DNA of 24,532 bases, from assembly GCA_030617085.1 (NCBI GenBank), contig JAUWWB010000001.1, positions 1 through 24,532 of the forward strand. The letters run 5' to 3'. The notes below the pieces were generated by a model, which did not search any database, was not told where the DNA came from, and was given only the letters and a program-made list of their open reading frames with translations. This document shows positions 1,295-20,714 of this stretch, piece after piece. The stretch's first letter is position 1; every line of letters starts with the position of its first letter. Made by a program: the position numbers and the translations under genes. The stretch comes from Candidatus Omnitrophota bacterium (GTDB lineage: Bacteria > Omnitrophota > Gorgyraeia > Tantalellales > Tantalellaceae).

Positions 1295-1329
1295 CCATCA
1301 ACCATCAACCATCCACTATCCACCCACCA
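1295..1329. repeat. 7-nt tandem repeat overlapping the mtnA stop codon
   Basis: CCATCAA CCATCAA CCATCCA CTATCCA CCCACCA. The CTA at 1316-1318 is the mtnA TAG. Confidence 0.8.
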
Positions 1330-2350
1330 ACTTCGCAATCTTCCGCCTATCCGGCCTCCTGATAACCCCGCGTTCGGTGATGATCGCCGTGATCAGCTTC
1401 GCCGGGGTGATATCGAATGCCGGGTTTCTGACATCGACATCTTTCAGGGTCACGTATTCTCCGCCCATTTTCTTGACTTCCAGGGGGGAGCGTTCCTCGA
1501 TAGGGATCGCGCCCCCGTCGGCCACGGACAGGTCAAAAGTGGAACGGGGGGCGGCGACATAGAACGGAACTTTGTGATAATGGGCCAACACCGCCAGGTT
1601 ATACGTCCCTATCTTGTTCGCGACGTCTCCGTTAGCCGCGATCCGGTCGGCGCCGACCATGACCGCGTCGACCTCGTTCTTTGCCATCAGCGAAGCCGCC
1701 ATGTTGTCGCATATCAGCGTAGCGGGGATATTCGCTTTCGACAGCTCCCATACCGTGAGCCGGGCGCCCTGCATGACCGGGCGCGTTTCATCGACGTAGA
1801 CCCGGCGAACCTTCTTCCCGGCAGCAAAGATCACCCCTAGAGCCGTGCCATACCCGCCGGTTGCCAGGCCGCCGGCGTTGCAGTGCGTTAGAATATTTGA
1901 GCCTTTCGCGATCAGCGCCTTTCCTTCCCGGCCTATCGCGCGGCATCGTCTCCTGTCTTCATCAAGTATGGCATGGGCTTCGTAGAGAACCATGCTCTTT
2001 AGTTCTCCCACCGGCATCCCTTTGTTCTTTTTCACGAGCTCATCGACTCTCTCCAGCGCCCAAAAAAGATCCCTGGCCGTAGGGCGCGAAGCGGCCAGGC
2101 GCTTCATGGTCCTTTCCAGCTCCTTTTTAAAGCTTCTGAAGCCCCTTGCCCTGCTCTTACGCACACCAAGATAAACCCCGTAAGCCGCCGCTATCCCGAT
2201 CGCCGGAGCCCCCCTGACCGCCATCGCTTTTATGGCGCGCACAACATCCCCATCCGTAAAACACGCCGCATACCGCGTCTTCCCCGGAAGAAGCCTCTGG
2301 TCGATCACCTCAAGCCTGTCGTTTTTCCAACGTATCGTTTCGTATTTCAT
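1316..2350 (-). CDS. mtnA: S-methyl-5-thioribose-1-phosphate isomerase (eIF-2B family)
   Basis: 344 aa. Motifs MAVRGAPAIG, SRPTA, THCNAGGLAT, DETRP, GADRIAANGDVANKIGT and NPAFDITP. Confidence 0.93.
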   Translation of the reverse strand: MKYETIRWKNDRLEVIDQRLLPGKTRYAACFTDGDVVRAIKAMAVRGAPAIGIAAAYGVYLGVRKSRARGFRSFKKELERTMKRLAASRPTARDLFWALERVDELVKKNKGMPVGELKSMVLYEAHAILDEDRRRCRAIGREGKALIAKGSNILTHCNAGGLATGGYGTALGVIFAAGKKVRRVYVDETRPVMQGARLTVWELSKANIPATLICDNMAASLMAKNEVDAVMVGADRIAANGDVANKIGTYNLAVLAHYHKVPFYVAAPRSTFDLSVADGGAIPIEERSPLEVKKMGGEYVTLKDVDVRNPAFDITPAKLITAIITERGVIRRPDRRKIAKLVGG

Positions 2351-2351
2351 T

Positions 2352-2365
2352 TTATCAGTTATCAG
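2352..2365. repeat. TTATCAG x2 heptad abutting the mtnA start codon
   Basis: The minus strand reads CTGATAA CTGATAA A ATG. Confidence 0.6.
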
Positions 2366-2372
2366 GGCAAAA

Positions 2373-2398
2373 GGGCAGGCACAGGGGCCTGCCCCTAC
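2373..2398 (-). repeat. GTAG-tagged REP palindrome (copy 1)
   Basis: Minus strand GTAG-GGGCAGGC-CCCTGT-GCCTGCCC: 8-bp stem, 6-nt loop and 5' GTAG tag, the architecture of RAYT-associated REPs. Confidence 0.85.
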
Positions 2399-2408
2399 AT
2401 GCAGTTAG

Positions 2409-2422
2409 GCCACTACGAACTA
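2409..2422. repeat. TAGTTCG-type heptad supplying the stop codon of the CPBP gene
   Basis: The minus strand reads TAGTTCG TAGTGGC. The first TAG (2420-2422) is the stop. Confidence 0.8.
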
Positions 2423-3490
2423 CCCTCCCCCGACGCTCCTCCCCGCGAATACCAGCGCTACCATTGCCAGGTTGTGCATGATGTGCACCGATATTGAGGG
2501 GATAAGCGAACCCGTTTTTTCATAGAGGTATGCCAGCAGCATGCCGAGCGCCAGTATGGGGAAAAATCCCACGGGATGCGCGTGCAGAAAAGAAAACACC
2601 GCGGAAGTCCCCACCATGGCCCAGAACATCCCCAGCCTTTTCCTGACGGCAGTGTACATGAAACCCCGGAAAAAGATCTCTTCAGCGATCGGGCCGAAAA
2701 CAGCCGCGAAGAGCGCCGAGAACCACAGGAGCGACACCTCCTTTTCCTCAATAAAGACGCGCACGATGGGCTGGATGGGAGGCCGGTATTCCAACAGTCT
2801 CGTCACGAAAAAGGTCAGCATCATTATCCCCGCGATAACGGGAACCAGCGCTACATACCCGACCGCGGCGTAAAAGACCCCGCTCCGCAAACCTCTGGGA
2901 GTAAGGCCTATGGCGTCCACGCCCTGCCCGTGCTTCCTGATGACAAAGTACAGGATAACACTGATGCCCACCACGTTCATAACGGCCGTATTGAACACCA
3001 TGCGAAAATTCTCGTTATGGAGAACGGGAAAAAGCCTTGACGCGATGGCCTGGATGATCATGAACGCGTACCCGCAGGAAAGAAATATCAACACCACCCT
3101 GGCGACGTCGGCCATGCCCCAGCGTGGCCTATCCTGCCGCACGAGCCGTATGCTGATCGGTTTCCGGCGCGCCCAGCGGGCTATGAAATACACATCCAGG
3201 AACAAGCCGACCAGTATCACAAACAATACCAGCAGGTTGAGTATCCCCAGGAACAGGTATAACACCGGATTTTGCGCGGCAAGCCGCTCGAGCTTCTCTT
3301 CCCACTCCCTTACGCCCAGCTGTTCGACCGGCGCCTTCTCCGCGGGCCGTTCCCGTAGGACCGCTGCCTCTTTCTCAAGCGGCCTTTCCCCCACCCGGCC
3401 CGCCAGAACCAGAAGGTTCACCCCCACAACGAAGGCAAGCAAAAAAACATACAACCTGTTCCGCCGCATGATATCGAAGAGCTCCCCCAT
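2420..3490 (-). CDS. CPBP-family (CAAX/Abi-like) intramembrane metalloprotease
   Basis: Multiple hydrophobic helices. Motifs AEEIFFRG (EExxxR), FSFLH (FxxxH) and HIMHN (HxxxN). Start set at ATG 3490, which has GGAGG upstream, rather than GTG 3508 inside the repeat. Confidence 0.88.
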   Translation of the reverse strand: MGELFDIMRRNRLYVFLLAFVVGVNLLVLAGRVGERPLEKEAAVLRERPAEKAPVEQLGVREWEEKLERLAAQNPVLYLFLGILNLLVLFVILVGLFLDVYFIARWARRKPISIRLVRQDRPRWGMADVARVVLIFLSCGYAFMIIQAIASRLFPVLHNENFRMVFNTAVMNVVGISVILYFVIRKHGQGVDAIGLTPRGLRSGVFYAAVGYVALVPVIAGIMMLTFFVTRLLEYRPPIQPIVRVFIEEKEVSLLWFSALFAAVFGPIAEEIFFRGFMYTAVRKRLGMFWAMVGTSAVFSFLHAHPVGFFPILALGMLLAYLYEKTGSLIPSISVHIMHNLAMVALVFAGRSVGGG

Positions 3491-3505
3491 AAGCGCGCCT
3501 CCGCT

Positions 3506-3582
3506 CACTACGAACTATGGCAAAAGGGCAGGCACAGGGGCCTGCCCCCTACATGCAATTAGGCCACTACGAACTAAAACTA
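3506..3582. repeat. Composite heptad / GTAG-REP (copy 2) / heptad cassette
   Basis: CACTACGAACTA at 3506-3517 and again at 3565-3576 brackets the REP GGGCAGGCACAGGGGCCTGCCCCCTAC (3526-3552, one extra C). The CTA at 3580-3582 is the TatD-rSAM stop. Confidence 0.85.
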
Positions 3583-20004: not shown

Positions 20005-20009
20005 TGTCT

Positions 20010-20522
20010 CTAGCCCTGTTCCTTTAGTTTTTCCTCAATGTCCTTTATCCTGTCCCGCACCAGGGCGGCCTTTTCAAATTCCTCCGCCCGGATAAGCTCG
20101 TTCAGCTCGGTTTTCAGGCGCTGGAGGTCCTTCTGCTCCTTGAGCGCCTCCTTGCCCTTGAAGGGCATCTTCCCCGCGTGCCGGTCCGAGCCGTGGATCT
20201 TCCTGAGCAGCGCCCCCAGTTCCTTCGCGAACGTCTCATAGCACTGCCCGCACCCGAGCCTGCCCGTTTTCTGGAAATCCTGGTACGTCATGCCGCAGAC
20301 AGGGCATTTCACCCCGGCTTCCCTCCGCACCCGATCTTCCGCCATGGACGGCCACAGGTCCATCAGGCCCGCCAGAAGATCGGTCAAGCCGAAATGCGAC
20401 TGCATCTCCTCGCTCTTCTTCCTGGCGCATTCTTCACAGAGATGAAGTTTAGTGACCTTGTCGTTAATGACCTCGGTCAAATGAACCGTAGCCTCCCGCA
20501 CCCCGCAAATATCACATTTCAT
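20010..20522 (-). CDS. mcsA: McsB activator McsA (4x CxxC plus UVR domain)
   Basis: CDIC, CEEC, CPVC, CGQC and C-terminal EEFEKAALVRDRI. Start set at ATG 20522 with GAGGTG SD (170 aa). Confidence 0.93.
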   Translation of the reverse strand: MKCDICGVREATVHLTEVINDKVTKLHLCEECARKKSEEMQSHFGLTDLLAGLMDLWPSMAEDRVRREAGVKCPVCGMTYQDFQKTGRLGCGQCYETFAKELGALLRKIHGSDRHAGKMPFKGKEALKEQKDLQRLKTELNELIRAEEFEKAALVRDRIKDIEEKLKEQG

Positions 20523-20539
20523 CCAGTCACCTCGCTTTT

Positions 20540-20563
20540 GCGGGGCTGGAAAGCCCCGCCTAT
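20540..20563 (-). repeat. Second GTAG-like REP-type hairpin
   Basis: Minus strand ATAG-GCGGGGCT-TTCC-AGCCCCGC: perfect 8-bp stem, tag one mismatch from GTAG. Single copy in the window. Confidence 0.5.
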
Positions 20564-20581
20564 TCGGGTGGAGCAAAATCA

Positions 20582-20595
20582 CTCCGAACTCCGGA
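20582..20595. repeat. CTCCGAA CTCCGGA heptad pair
   Basis: Same unit as at 11192-11212. Confidence 0.6.
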
Positions 20596-20602
20596 CCACC
20601 CC

Positions 20603-20676
20603 TGTCATCCTGAGCGAAGCGAAGGATCTCTGCCAGCGCGACACCCCGGAGATCCTTCGCTTCGCTCAGGATGACA
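20603..20676. repeat. TGTC(CGTC-class)-tagged REP-like dimer with a 28-bp perfect inverted repeat (copy B)
   Basis: TGTCATCCTGAGCGAAGCGAAGGATCTC (20603-20630) and its exact reverse complement (20649-20676). Arms are identical to copy A; the 18-nt spacer differs. Confidence 0.9.
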
Positions 20677-20686
20677 ATTGGGGGTA

Positions 20687-20714
20687 GCCACTACGAACTA
20701 CGAACTACGAACTA
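20687..20714. repeat. TAGTTCG x3 + TAGTGGC heptads supplying the ilvE stop codon
   Basis: CTA at 20691, 20698, 20705 and 20712. The one at 20712-20714 is the ilvE TAG. Confidence 0.9.

What the first reader, a model, noticed from the sequence alone, without database searches (positions are those of the whole stretch)
1295..20714. 7-nt tandem repeats are seeded on the stop codons of successive housekeeping genes
Seen: the stop codon is itself part of a heptad-type tract for mtnA (1316), the CPBP gene (2420), TatD-rSAM (3580; first spacing 6 nt), holB (7574), yacL (11213) and ilvE (20712). For metG the tract starts just after the stop (5059). Unit sequences differ (TAGTTCG, GAGTTCG, TAGGTTN, TGGTTGA/TAGTGGA, TAAAAAT) but share the period and the position. 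In mtnA and yacL the repeat extends into the last codons. The same TAGTTCG-TAGTGGC ending recurs at 2409, 3563 and 20687, and TAGTGGC also follows the mlaD stop. Independent slippage would not readily give a shared period and position. Inference: a mobile or repeat-generating system targets gene 3' ends, which is a safe harbour inside operons.
Basis: partly seen in the sequence, partly recalled or inferred. Interest (0 to 1): 0.88.

Follow-up and report, generated by a model that had tools for sequence, protein, structure and literature searches.

The report
Heptamer repeats that donate stop codons
In this small Omnitrophota genome, hundreds of 7-base tandem repeats sit directly on gene ends, and in roughly one gene in eight a repeat supplies the stop codon: an extreme local form of a known kind of bacterial repeat.

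Summary
The window is one contig of a 1.08 Mb Candidatus Omnitrophota MAG. The MAG holds 345 period-7 arrays, and 85% of their bases are non-coding. In co-directional spacers, 89 of 246 arrays touch the stop codon. Random placement predicts 14, and 14 touch the start side. 66 genes end in TAG-TTCG. The arrays are insertions. At 122 junctions syntenic with an array-free sister genus (G011), the spacer is 108 nt against 19 nt. In most cases the stop belongs to the array. TAG makes up 36% of stops here against 21-23% in two relatives, and C-termini are truncated or carry array-coded tails such as ..SS* and ..EFGVRSS*. One strain lacks exactly one unit at 1295, as expected from slippage. A second genus (G002) shows the same rule with other units, for example TGA-CGGG-TGACGGG. 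This is a new, extreme variant of known heptanucleotide repeats: STRR/LSSR, Xanthomonas/Nostoc GGGNATC and Beggiatoa TAACTGA. Active targeting of stop codons is not shown. A side result is that PF05635 four-helix-bundle (23S-IVS-type) genes are bracketed by inverted heptad arms, in 21 of 26 Omnitrophota loci and 6 of 8 cyanobacterial plasmid loci. That makes them a candidate parent element for the two-armed arrays.

The parts
1295..1324 (-). GGATGGT/TGATGGT-type heptad array (4.3 units) containing the mtnA stop codon (TAG 1316-1318).
   Evidence: Sequence, TRF. The RNA is unstructured. The X2 strain lacks exactly 7 nt here. The protein is 5 aa shorter than its G011 ortholog.
2409..2422 (-). 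TAGTTCG-TAGTGGC mini-array whose first TAG is the CPBP protease stop. It is followed by a REP_A hairpin (about 2366-2408).
   Evidence: The G011 ortholog ends in TAA, with a 17-nt spacer against 69 nt here.
3563..3582 (-). TAG-TTT-TAGTTCG-TAGTGGC at the TatD-radical SAM stop. It is followed by a REP_A hairpin (about 3519-3562) and a second TAGTTCGTAGTG copy (3506-3517).
   Evidence: The stop is at the native position; G011 has TAA and a 16-nt spacer against 71 nt here.
4968..5058 (-). Two-armed heptad element after the metG stop (TAG 5059-5061). Direct TATAGGT/TTTAGGT units are followed by the inverted AAACCTA arm.
   Evidence: The RNA folds into a long stem: -36.9 kcal/mol, z -4.2. The metG C-terminus is unchanged relative to G011.
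7476..7576 (-). Two-armed TAAAAAT/CAAAAAT element whose first triplet is the holB stop (TAA 7574-7576).
   Evidence: Stem of -22.4 kcal/mol, z -4.6. The holB-ricT spacer is 134 nt here and 15 nt in G011.
11192..11221 (-). KAGTTCG array (about 4 units). The TAG of the second unit (11213-11215) is the stop of the yacL-like gene. A REP_A hairpin follows at 11160-11181.
   Evidence: The array-coded tail is ..SS* and the protein is 3 aa shorter than in G011. The array is single-stranded ahead of the hairpin.
20687..20714 (-). TAGTTCG x3 plus TAGTGGC. The first TAG (20712-20714) is the ilvE stop.
   Evidence: The stop is at the native position (..EY* in all relatives). The spacer is 189 nt here and 3 nt in G011.
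20588..20686 (-). Long inverted-repeat element (IR_C family, 66 genomic copies) that follows the ilvE array. A further GGAGTTCGGAGTG remnant lies at its far side.
   Evidence: Fold of -77 kcal/mol, z -9.
12498..12507 (-). mlaD-like stop TGA followed directly by a single TAGTGGC unit.
   Evidence: The stop is native (TGA in G011 too).

Best explanation
The tracts belong to a genome-wide population of heptanucleotide tandem arrays of the STRR / long-SSR kind. These arrays have invaded the tight operon junctions of this streamlined Omnitrophota genome.

They come in two builds.
1. One-armed, sense-oriented KAGTTCG arrays. These stay single-stranded and are usually followed by a REP-like hairpin.
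2. Two-armed elements, in which direct heptads, a short core and the inverted heptads fold into a long stem.

The first unit of an array nearly always carries a stop triplet on the coding strand. Because 7 = 1 mod 3, successive units offer that stop in all three frames. An array can therefore lie on, or overwrite, the last codons and the native stop of a gene in any frame. The cost is at most a few lost or added residues, and the array's own TAG (or TAA/TGA in other unit families) then serves as the gene's stop codon.

Shown: the arrays are added DNA, they supply the stop, and they vary by whole units between strains.

Inferred: each unit family spreads between loci as part of small mobile modules (REP-type hairpins, or IVS-like foldback elements carrying a four-helix-bundle gene). 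Length then changes by replication slippage. Purifying selection on C-termini, plus loss of useless spacer in a 1.1 Mb genome, pulls the arrays flush with the coding sequence.
For: Abundance and position:
- 345 arrays; 85% of array bases are non-coding, in a genome that is 12% non-coding.
- Stop-side bias of 89, against 14 expected and 14 on the start side. In genus G002, which has different units, the same counts are 36, 7.5 and 7.

Arrays are insertions:
- At 122 array-bearing syntenic junctions the median spacer is 108.5 nt in G000 and 19 nt in array-free G011. At 371 junctions without arrays the values are 19 and 9 nt.
- G011 has no period-7 excess.
- Most of 44 Omnitrophota ilvE-mcsA junctions are empty.

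The stop is array-borne:
- TAG is 36% of stops in G000, 23% in G011 and 21% in G002.
- Removing 118 element-associated TAG stops leaves 26% TAG.
- For arrays at the stop, 41 of 49 stops are TAG, while the G011 orthologs have TAA 27, TGA 12 and TAG 10. 39% of these proteins are at least 2 aa shorter than the ortholog, against 19% of controls.
- For arrays reaching into coding sequence, 51% of proteins are at least 2 aa longer, with tails ..SS*..VRSS*..SSEFGVRSS*.

Polarity of the array:
- The first unit begins with T in 128 of 159 KAGTTCG arrays; later units fall to 35-50% T. This holds also for arrays that start after a separate stop.
- Stops in all three frames are enriched on the sense strand only in stop-proximal arrays. 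Sense against antisense is 53 v 24 in G000 and 28 v 7 in G002.

Slippage: the X2 strain lacks exactly 7 nt at 1295 and 10 nt in a decamer array.

Dispersal:
- The same unit occurs at 159 loci, in a 98:12 sense:antisense ratio.
- 46% of the 129 REP_A copies are preceded by such arrays.
- The KAGTTCG x3 pattern occurs 73 times here, 17 times in one genome of another family, and never in 295 other Omnitrophota.
Against: - No transposase or other enzyme has been tied to the arrays.
- The only RAYT-like gene scores below its curated cut-off and is not flanked by REP_A.
- The strong peak exactly at the native stop (about 20 of 49 cases with no change in protein length, such as ilvE) is only loosely explained by selection plus spacer loss. 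It would also fit true targeting.
- GAGTTCG, the commonest unit, carries no stop, so the three-frame-stop property holds only for the proximal units.
- Stop codons turn over fast at 70% protein identity, so G011 is an imperfect proxy for the ancestral stop.
- Gene calls come from my own ORF scorer rather than a standard gene caller.
- Only one whole-unit polymorphism was seen in the window's heptad arrays.
Confidence: 0.55

Rival explanations
1. A site-specific mobile or repeat-adding system inserts array-plus-hairpin modules next to a short target that contains TAG, as IS200/IS605 and RAYT enzymes insert 3' of a tetranucleotide. TAG stop codons are the main harmless targets, so the modules pile up on them.
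For: - The first unit is TAG in 81% of arrays, and later units are mostly GAG.
- The base before the first TAG is T or G in 83% of cases, against 53% in the background.
- Orientation is strongly biased, 98:12.
- REP_A carries the classical GTAG head, and 14 genes use that GTAG as their stop, always with G at -1.
- A RAYT-like ORF and an IS200/IS605 tnpA are present.
- The taxonomic distribution of the unit is patchy.
Against: - Targeting pre-existing TAG stops would not raise TAG usage from about 22% to 36%.
- It would not truncate or extend C-termini.
- The RAYT-like hit is below its cut-off, and no REP_A was seen in the 260 nt flanking it on either side.
- The same positional rule holds in G002 for many unrelated units using TGA or TAA, which argues against a single sequence-specific target.
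Confidence: 0.2
2. The arrays are functional RNA elements in 3' untranslated or intercistronic regions. They would act as platforms for a single-strand RNA-binding protein that reads about 7 nt per subunit (cold-shock-type, S1-type or HutP-like). Alternatively they would be RNase III stems that set mRNA stability, processing or termination-reinitiation at operon junctions.
For: - Sense orientation.
- One-armed arrays are unstructured and sit just before strong hairpins. Two-armed arrays form long stems with z about -4.2 to -4.6.
- CspB binds heptamer repeats with one protein per heptamer, as cited in PMC4679880.
- RNase III cuts the Coxiella IVS stem at the first of its tandem heptamers (PMC4990558).
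Against: - Arrays are absent from a sister genus with the same operons.
- Units differ between and within genomes, so no conserved binding motif exists.
- Arrays damage or extend protein C-termini.
- Orientation relative to genes cannot be separated from orientation relative to replication, because 749 of 794 spacers are co-directional.
Confidence: 0.18
3. Each tract arose independently by slippage seeded on the local stop codon plus the next four bases, with no transfer between loci.
For: - Period 7 is a known slippage-prone unit size in prokaryotes (cited in PMC4692102 and PMC4679880).
- Whole-unit polymorphism exists.
- Singleton unit types are common in G002, and different units occur at the same ilvE junction in different lineages.
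Against: - TTCG after TAG at 66 genes, and one unit at 159 loci, cannot be independent.
- Arrays that begin after a separate TGA or TAA stop still start with TAG.
- C-terminal truncations and array-coded tails show overwriting rather than seeding.
Confidence: 0.05

Closest known systems
Heptanucleotide long simple-sequence repeats / cyanobacterial STRR repeats (Mazel 1990 and Mrazek 2007, as cited in PMC4692102 and PMC4679880)
   Same: Short tandem arrays of 7-nt units occur at hundreds of mostly intergenic loci, with a few unit families per genome and variable length. A minor family here (ACTGGGG, 7 arrays) is the reverse complement of the classical STRR unit CCCCAGT (the STRR unit is from memory).
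   Different: The phylum is different (Omnitrophota) and so are the main units. The arrays sit on the stop codon and supply it for about 12-13% of genes. The one-armed family is strongly sense-oriented.
GGGNATC / GGGGAYT G-quadruplex heptamers of Xanthomonas and Nostoc (Rehm et al. 2015, PMC4692102)
   Same: These lie between co-directional genes. [quoted passage not shown] Arrays commonly have about 4 units. Length varies between related strains.
   Different: The main units here have no G-runs, so no quadruplex can form. Here the repeat itself is the stop codon and rewrites C-termini, which that paper does not report.
TAACTGA direct repeats of marine Beggiatoaceae, cyanobacteria and Bacteroidetes (MacGregor 2015, PMC4679880)
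   Same: The same unit occurs here as a minor two-armed family (12 arrays). That paper notes that forward repeats give stops in all three frames, that 13 sets overlap an upstream stop, and that the distribution across phyla is patchy.
   Different: In Beggiatoa the repeats end 1 to a few nt before start codons. Here the bias is to the stop side (89 v 14).
REP / REPIN elements with RAYT transposases
   Same: REP_A is a GC-rich hairpin with a GTAG head. It has 129 copies, is intergenic and is orientation-biased. A RAYT-like ORF is present.
   Different: The heptad arrays are not hairpins and are not REPs. The RAYT-like hit is below its cut-off, and no REP_A was seen in the 260 nt flanking it on either side.
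23S rRNA intervening sequences with an S23p / PF05635 ORF (Coxiella, Leptospira; PMC4990558)
   Same: A four-helix-bundle ORF sits inside a long inverted-repeat stem. In Coxiella the stem holds tandem heptamers (GACAGAT) whose number varies between strains, and RNase III cuts at the first repeat. PF05635 genes here and in relatives are bracketed by inverted heptad arms.
   Different: The elements here lie between protein-coding genes, not in rRNA. Most copies have no ORF. RNase III cleavage is untested.

Membership tests
Heptanucleotide tandem repeats (LSSR / STRR kind) | Head-to-tail arrays of 7-nt units, at least 2-3 copies | tested here: met
   TRF gives 354 period-7 rows, merged to 345 arrays of 2-14 copies.
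Heptanucleotide tandem repeats (LSSR / STRR kind) | Many dispersed, mainly intergenic loci with a few dominant unit families | tested here: met
   85% of array bases are non-coding. The main families are GAGTTCG 68, TAGTTCG 49 and AGGTTTT 41.
Heptanucleotide tandem repeats (LSSR / STRR kind) | Copy number varies by whole units between strains | tested here: met
   Contigs of the X2 run lack exactly 7 nt at 1295. This is a single instance.
G-quadruplex GGGNATC heptamers (Rehm 2015) | A G-run in each unit, so that four units can form a quadruplex | tested here: not met
   The main units TAGTTCG, GAGTTCG, TAGGTTT and TAAAAAT have no GGG.
TAACTGA repeats (MacGregor 2015) | Arrays end within a few nt upstream of a start codon | tested here: not met
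   89 arrays lie at the stop side and 14 at the start side. The unit itself is present only as a minor family.
REP / RAYT system | Palindromic hairpin preceded by a GTAG-type head, in many intergenic copies | tested here: met
   This holds for REP_A, which has 129 copies. It does not hold for the heptad arrays themselves.
REP / RAYT system | A cognate RAYT gene, usually flanked by its REPs | tested here: inconclusive
   The NF047646 hit scores 65 bits against a cut-off of 80. The 260 nt shown on each side of the ORF hold a different hairpin and no REP_A.
23S-IVS-type element (PF05635 ORF in an inverted-repeat stem) | A four-helix-bundle ORF enclosed by inverted repeats | tested here: met
   This holds for C81:6816-7130, for 21 of 26 family loci and for 6 of 8 cyanobacterial plasmid loci, against 6% of control genes. 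The window's own arrays contain no such ORF.
23S-IVS-type element (PF05635 ORF in an inverted-repeat stem) | Inserted in 23S rRNA and excised by RNase III | tested here: not met
   The G000, G002 and annotated cyanobacterial-plasmid copies lie next to or between protein-coding genes. Cleavage cannot be tested with these tools.
Mobile element that targets stop codons | Filled and empty sites in close relatives, with defined ends or a defined target | tested here: inconclusive
   Empty sites exist at genus distance. No relative closer than 74% IlvE identity was found.

The most novel reading that the evidence does not exclude
Bacterial heptamer tandem repeats may be the arms and orphaned remnants of one widespread, undescribed class of IVS-like foldback elements. 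This would include the long-unexplained STRR repeats of heterocystous cyanobacteria and the arrays seen here. The autonomous form would carry a PF05635 four-helix-bundle gene (S23p / Avd-like) between inverted heptad arrays. The protein would recognise or mobilise heptad arms, and the RNA stem would be removed by RNase III. That would make gene ends and rRNA helices safe landing sites.
Probability: 0.25. Interest if true: 0.85.

Novelty: new variant of a known kind. Interest (0 to 1): 0.62.

Why it matters
A class of simple repeats can rewrite the ends of a large share of a genome's genes. About 118 of 876 stop codons here lie in a repeat, and dozens of proteins carry repeat-coded tails. Meanwhile the genome stays small and functional.

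Practical consequences:
- Gene callers and ortholog pipelines will see shifted C-termini.
- Stop-codon usage statistics are distorted. TAG is the commonest stop here.
- Assemblies break at these sites.

The data also give a testable lead on the origin of heptamer repeats, which have been known since 1990 without a mechanism. In two phyla, four-helix-bundle IVS-type genes are bracketed by inverted heptad arrays. In a small sample of genomes, the presence of these genes tracks the presence of heptads.

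Tried and rejected
- **Close relatives for a fresh empty/filled polymorphism.** Scans of genome contigs and metagenome contigs with IlvE found nothing closer than 72-74% identity. Only genus-level empty sites could be shown.
- **Assembly artefact.** Rejected. Contigs of runs X2 and X3 cover the arrays, although many contigs break at repeats.
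- **Three-frame stops as a selected fail-safe function.** Weakened. The commonest unit, GAGTTCG, has no stop. The abstract of PMC6764699 (listed, not read further) reports no evidence for selected extra stops in bacteria. The property looks like a permissive filter.
- **One sequence-specific RNA binder (HutP / TRAP-like reading of KAG-N4).** This was considered from memory. No search was run for such genes. It seems unlikely because units are very diverse.
- **KAGTTCG arrays as halves of foldback elements.** Poorly supported in G000, where only 12 of 112 are antisense. However, PF05635 loci in G321 and G324 do have KAGTTCG-like arms.
It was not tested with an HMM.
- **Literature on PF05635 genes with heptad arms.** Only the Coxiella IVS paper was found.
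- **** failed on wrong coordinates and was repeated.

Full report
**What the window is.** The window is the whole contig C46 of a 1.08 Mb, 172-contig MAG that is 92.7% complete. Its nearest public relatives are titled Candidatus Omnitrophota. None is closer than 74% IlvE identity, and every relative belongs to another genus. All real genes in the window lie on the minus strand. NCBIfam confirms mtnA, a CPBP protease, a TatD-radical SAM fusion, metG, ricT, holB, ilvE and an MlaD-like gene. The 'yacL' name could not be confirmed.

**Check of the observation.** TRF finds period-7 arrays at 1295-1324, 4999-5050, 7524-7576, 11192-11221 and 20690-20714. The CPBP and TatD sites have only two units (TAGTTCG-TAGTGGC) and are weak taken alone.

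Genome-wide the pattern is very strong.
- Period 7 accounts for 354 of 935 TRF rows, merged into 345 arrays covering 10.5 kb.
- 85% of array bases are non-coding, although only 12% of the genome is non-coding.
- The main units are GAGTTCG (68), TAGTTCG (49), AGGTTTT (41), GGATGGT (18), GATTTTT (15) and ATAGGTT (15).
- In co-directional spacers, 89 of 246 arrays overlap or abut the stop. Uniform placement in the same spacers expects 14, and 14 abut the start side.
- 57 of 873 genes have at least 80% period-7 self-match in the 28 nt from the stop, against 0-1 for periods 5, 6, 8, 9 and 10.
- 66 genes end in TAG-TTCG.

**The arrays are added DNA.** I fetched a whole same-family genome, G011 (1.56 Mb), as a control. 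It has no period-7 excess: 49 of 613 TRF rows are period 7, and only 1 of 1295 genes has a heptadic stop context. Among 493 adjacent gene pairs syntenic between the two genomes, 122 carry an array in G000. Those 122 junctions have a median spacer of 108.5 nt in G000 and 19 nt in G011. The 371 junctions without arrays have 19 and 9 nt. In the window the spacers compare as follows (G000 v G011):
- mtnA junction: 172 v 39 nt
- holB-ricT: 134 v 15 nt
- yacL-like junction: 76 v 25 nt
- ilvE-mcsA: 189 v 3 nt

Across 44 Omnitrophota most ilvE-mcsA junctions are short or overlapping, so the empty state is the common one.

**The stop codon usually belongs to the array.** TAG is the commonest stop here at 36%. 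It is 23% in G011 and 21% in G002. Removing the 118 genes whose TAG lies in a recognisable repeat leaves 26%.

For 712 ortholog pairs with G011:
- Arrays starting 4-15 nt after the stop leave the C-terminus unchanged. In 83% of cases the length agrees within 1 aa.
- For arrays at the stop, 41 of 49 stops are TAG, while the G011 orthologs use TAA 27, TGA 12 and TAG 10. 39% of these proteins are at least 2 aa shorter, against 19% of controls, and they are often cut where conservation ends.
- For arrays reaching into the coding sequence, 51% of proteins are at least 2 aa longer.

The added tails read ..SS*..VRSS* and ..SSEFGVRSS*, which are translated KAGTTCG units. In the window, ilvE and TatD-rSAM keep the native stop position, holB is 1 aa shorter, the yacL-like protein is 3 aa shorter with an SS tail, and mtnA is 5 aa shorter.

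**Anatomy of the arrays.**
- Of 159 KAGTTCG arrays, the first unit begins with T in 128. Later units fall to 35-50% T. The array normally ends in a bare GAG or TAG.
- Arrays that start after a separate TGA or TAA stop still begin with T-TAGTTCG. The TAG is therefore an intrinsic 5' feature of the array.
- The gene's stop is the TAG of unit 1 in 38 arrays, of unit 2 in 24 and of unit 3 in 2. In 38 more arrays the stop lies 1-15 nt upstream.
- Orientation is 98 sense to 12 antisense.
- Stops in all three frames are enriched on the sense strand only for stop-proximal arrays. Sense against antisense is 53 v 24 here and 28 v 7 in G002.
- One-armed arrays are unstructured and precede strong hairpins. 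Two-armed arrays (after metG and holB) fold into long stems with z about -4.2 to -4.6.
- The commonest hairpin, REP_A, has a GTAG head and a GGGCAGGC stem. It has 129 copies, 111 of them sense, and 46% are preceded by KAGTTCG. In 14 genes its GTAG is itself the stop codon.

**Dynamics and distribution.**
- Contigs of other public runs from marine sediment and hydrothermal vent metagenomes carry near-identical strains. One of them lacks exactly one heptad at 1295 and one decamer at 12337.
- The KAGTTCG x3 pattern occurs 73 times in G000, 17 times in one genome of another family and 1-3 times in four more. It is absent from 295 other Omnitrophota genomes. The reversed control pattern gives 0-1 hits.
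- A second same-family genus, G002 (400 kb sampled), is even richer in heptads, with 233 of 499 TRF rows. Its units are different, and it shows the same rule: 36 arrays at the stop, against 7.5 expected and 7 at the start side. Its stops include TGA-CGGG-TGACGGG and TAA-GTTA-TAAGTTA.
- At the ilvE stop in 134 distinct relatives, 6 junctions carry period-7 arrays with unrelated units. Two carry period 8, and none carries period 5, 6, 9, 10 or 11.

**Interpretation.**

*Shown:* heptad arrays are lineage-specific additions to operon junctions. They sit preferentially on gene ends, they often provide the stop codon and rewrite the last residues, and they change by whole units between strains.

*Inferred:* unit families spread as parts of small mobile modules, lengths change by slippage, and selection plus spacer loss makes the arrays flush with the coding sequence. 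The property that makes this cheap is arithmetic. A stop-bearing 7-nt unit offers a stop in every frame within three units. MacGregor already noted this for TAACTGA repeats.

Active targeting of stop codons remains possible. The peak at exactly the native stop, the T/G bias at -1 and the GTAG heads all point that way. However, targeting alone does not explain the rise in TAG usage or the altered C-termini. A purely functional RNA reading is weakened because the arrays are absent from a sister genus that has the same operons, and because no unit is conserved.

**Relation to known repeats.** Heptamer excess in prokaryotic simple repeats, the STRR repeats of Calothrix and Nostoc, the GGGNATC repeats of Xanthomonas and Nostoc, and the TAACTGA repeats of Beggiatoaceae are all published. 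[quoted passage not shown] The present case is a new phylum and a more extreme form, so I rate it a new variant of a known kind.

**Side result worth following.**
- G000 has two PF05635 genes. One, at C81:6816-7130, lies between GGGACTG repeats and their inverted complement. The other follows about 15 GGATGAG-type units.
- The single PF05635 copy found in the sampled 400 kb of G002 has arms of that genome's commonest unit.
- In the family, 21 of 26 PF05635 loci have inverted matches of at least 10 nt between their 220-nt flanks, and most of these are heptadic. Only 6% of ordinary genes in three genomes do.
- Two loci (G321, G324) have KAGTTCG-like arms.
- Among eleven genomes with an ilvE locus in hand, the five without PF05635 have no heptad array in that locus. 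Five of the six with PF05635 have at least two. The sample is small and the genomes are related.
- PF05635 homologues on plasmids are almost all cyanobacterial. Of 8 loci inspected, 6 are bracketed by matching heptad arrays, inverted in at least five of them, with 15-25 nt inverted matches in five.
- The Coxiella 23S IVS, which carries such an ORF, has strain-variable tandem heptamers at the RNase III site.

This supports IVS-like foldback elements as a source of two-armed heptad arrays. It does not yet explain the one-armed KAGTTCG family.

Noticed in passing
G000 C81:6816-7130 and C80:1819-2136; loci L292-L320; L321-L328: PF05635 four-helix-bundle (S23p / 23S-IVS-type) genes are bracketed by inverted heptad arrays. 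This holds in 21 of 26 Omnitrophota loci and in 6 of 8 cyanobacterial plasmid loci (clearly inverted in at least five), against 6% of control genes. In a small sample, genomes without the gene lack heptads.
   Followed up: partly
window 37-225, 12326-12492, 22360-22477: Period-10 arrays (GTAATTNATN units) with inverted arms fill the three large spacers of the window. The X2 strain lacks exactly one 10-nt unit at 12337.
   Followed up: partly
genome-wide; window 2366-2408, 3519-3562, 11160-11181: A REP-like hairpin with a GTAG head (REP_A) has 129 copies in 1.08 Mb, 111 of them in sense orientation. In 14 genes its GTAG is the stop codon. On the opposite strand it scores as the best terminator-like site in the window.
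   Followed up: partly
window 20607-20680 and 1163-1240; genome-wide: A long perfect inverted repeat (GTCATCCTGAGCGAAGCGAAGGATCT arms) has 66 arm matches in both orientations. The ilvE copy folds at -77 kcal/mol (z -9).
   Followed up: partly
L016 / L218 (relatives' ilvE junction): The heptad after the ilvE stop in one relative has the unit GACAGAG/GACAGAT. This is the same unit as the tandem heptamer in the Coxiella burnetii 23S IVS (PMC4990558).
   Followed up: no
whole genome G000: Gene orientation is extremely uniform locally: 749 of 794 spacers are co-directional. Although this is one of the smallest genomes in its family, it has more non-coding DNA than G011 (12% v 9%), largely repeats.
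   Followed up: no
G000 C121:3710-4066 and C152 (L096:86-1147): An IS200/IS605-type tnpA is followed by an apparent tnpB. A separate 353-aa ORF combines a RAYT-like domain (below cut-off) with a DnaA C-terminal-like stretch.
   Followed up: partly
window 3580-4956: A single 458-aa protein fuses a TatD nuclease domain to the TatD-associated radical SAM domain (TIGR00010 plus TIGR04038).
   Followed up: partly
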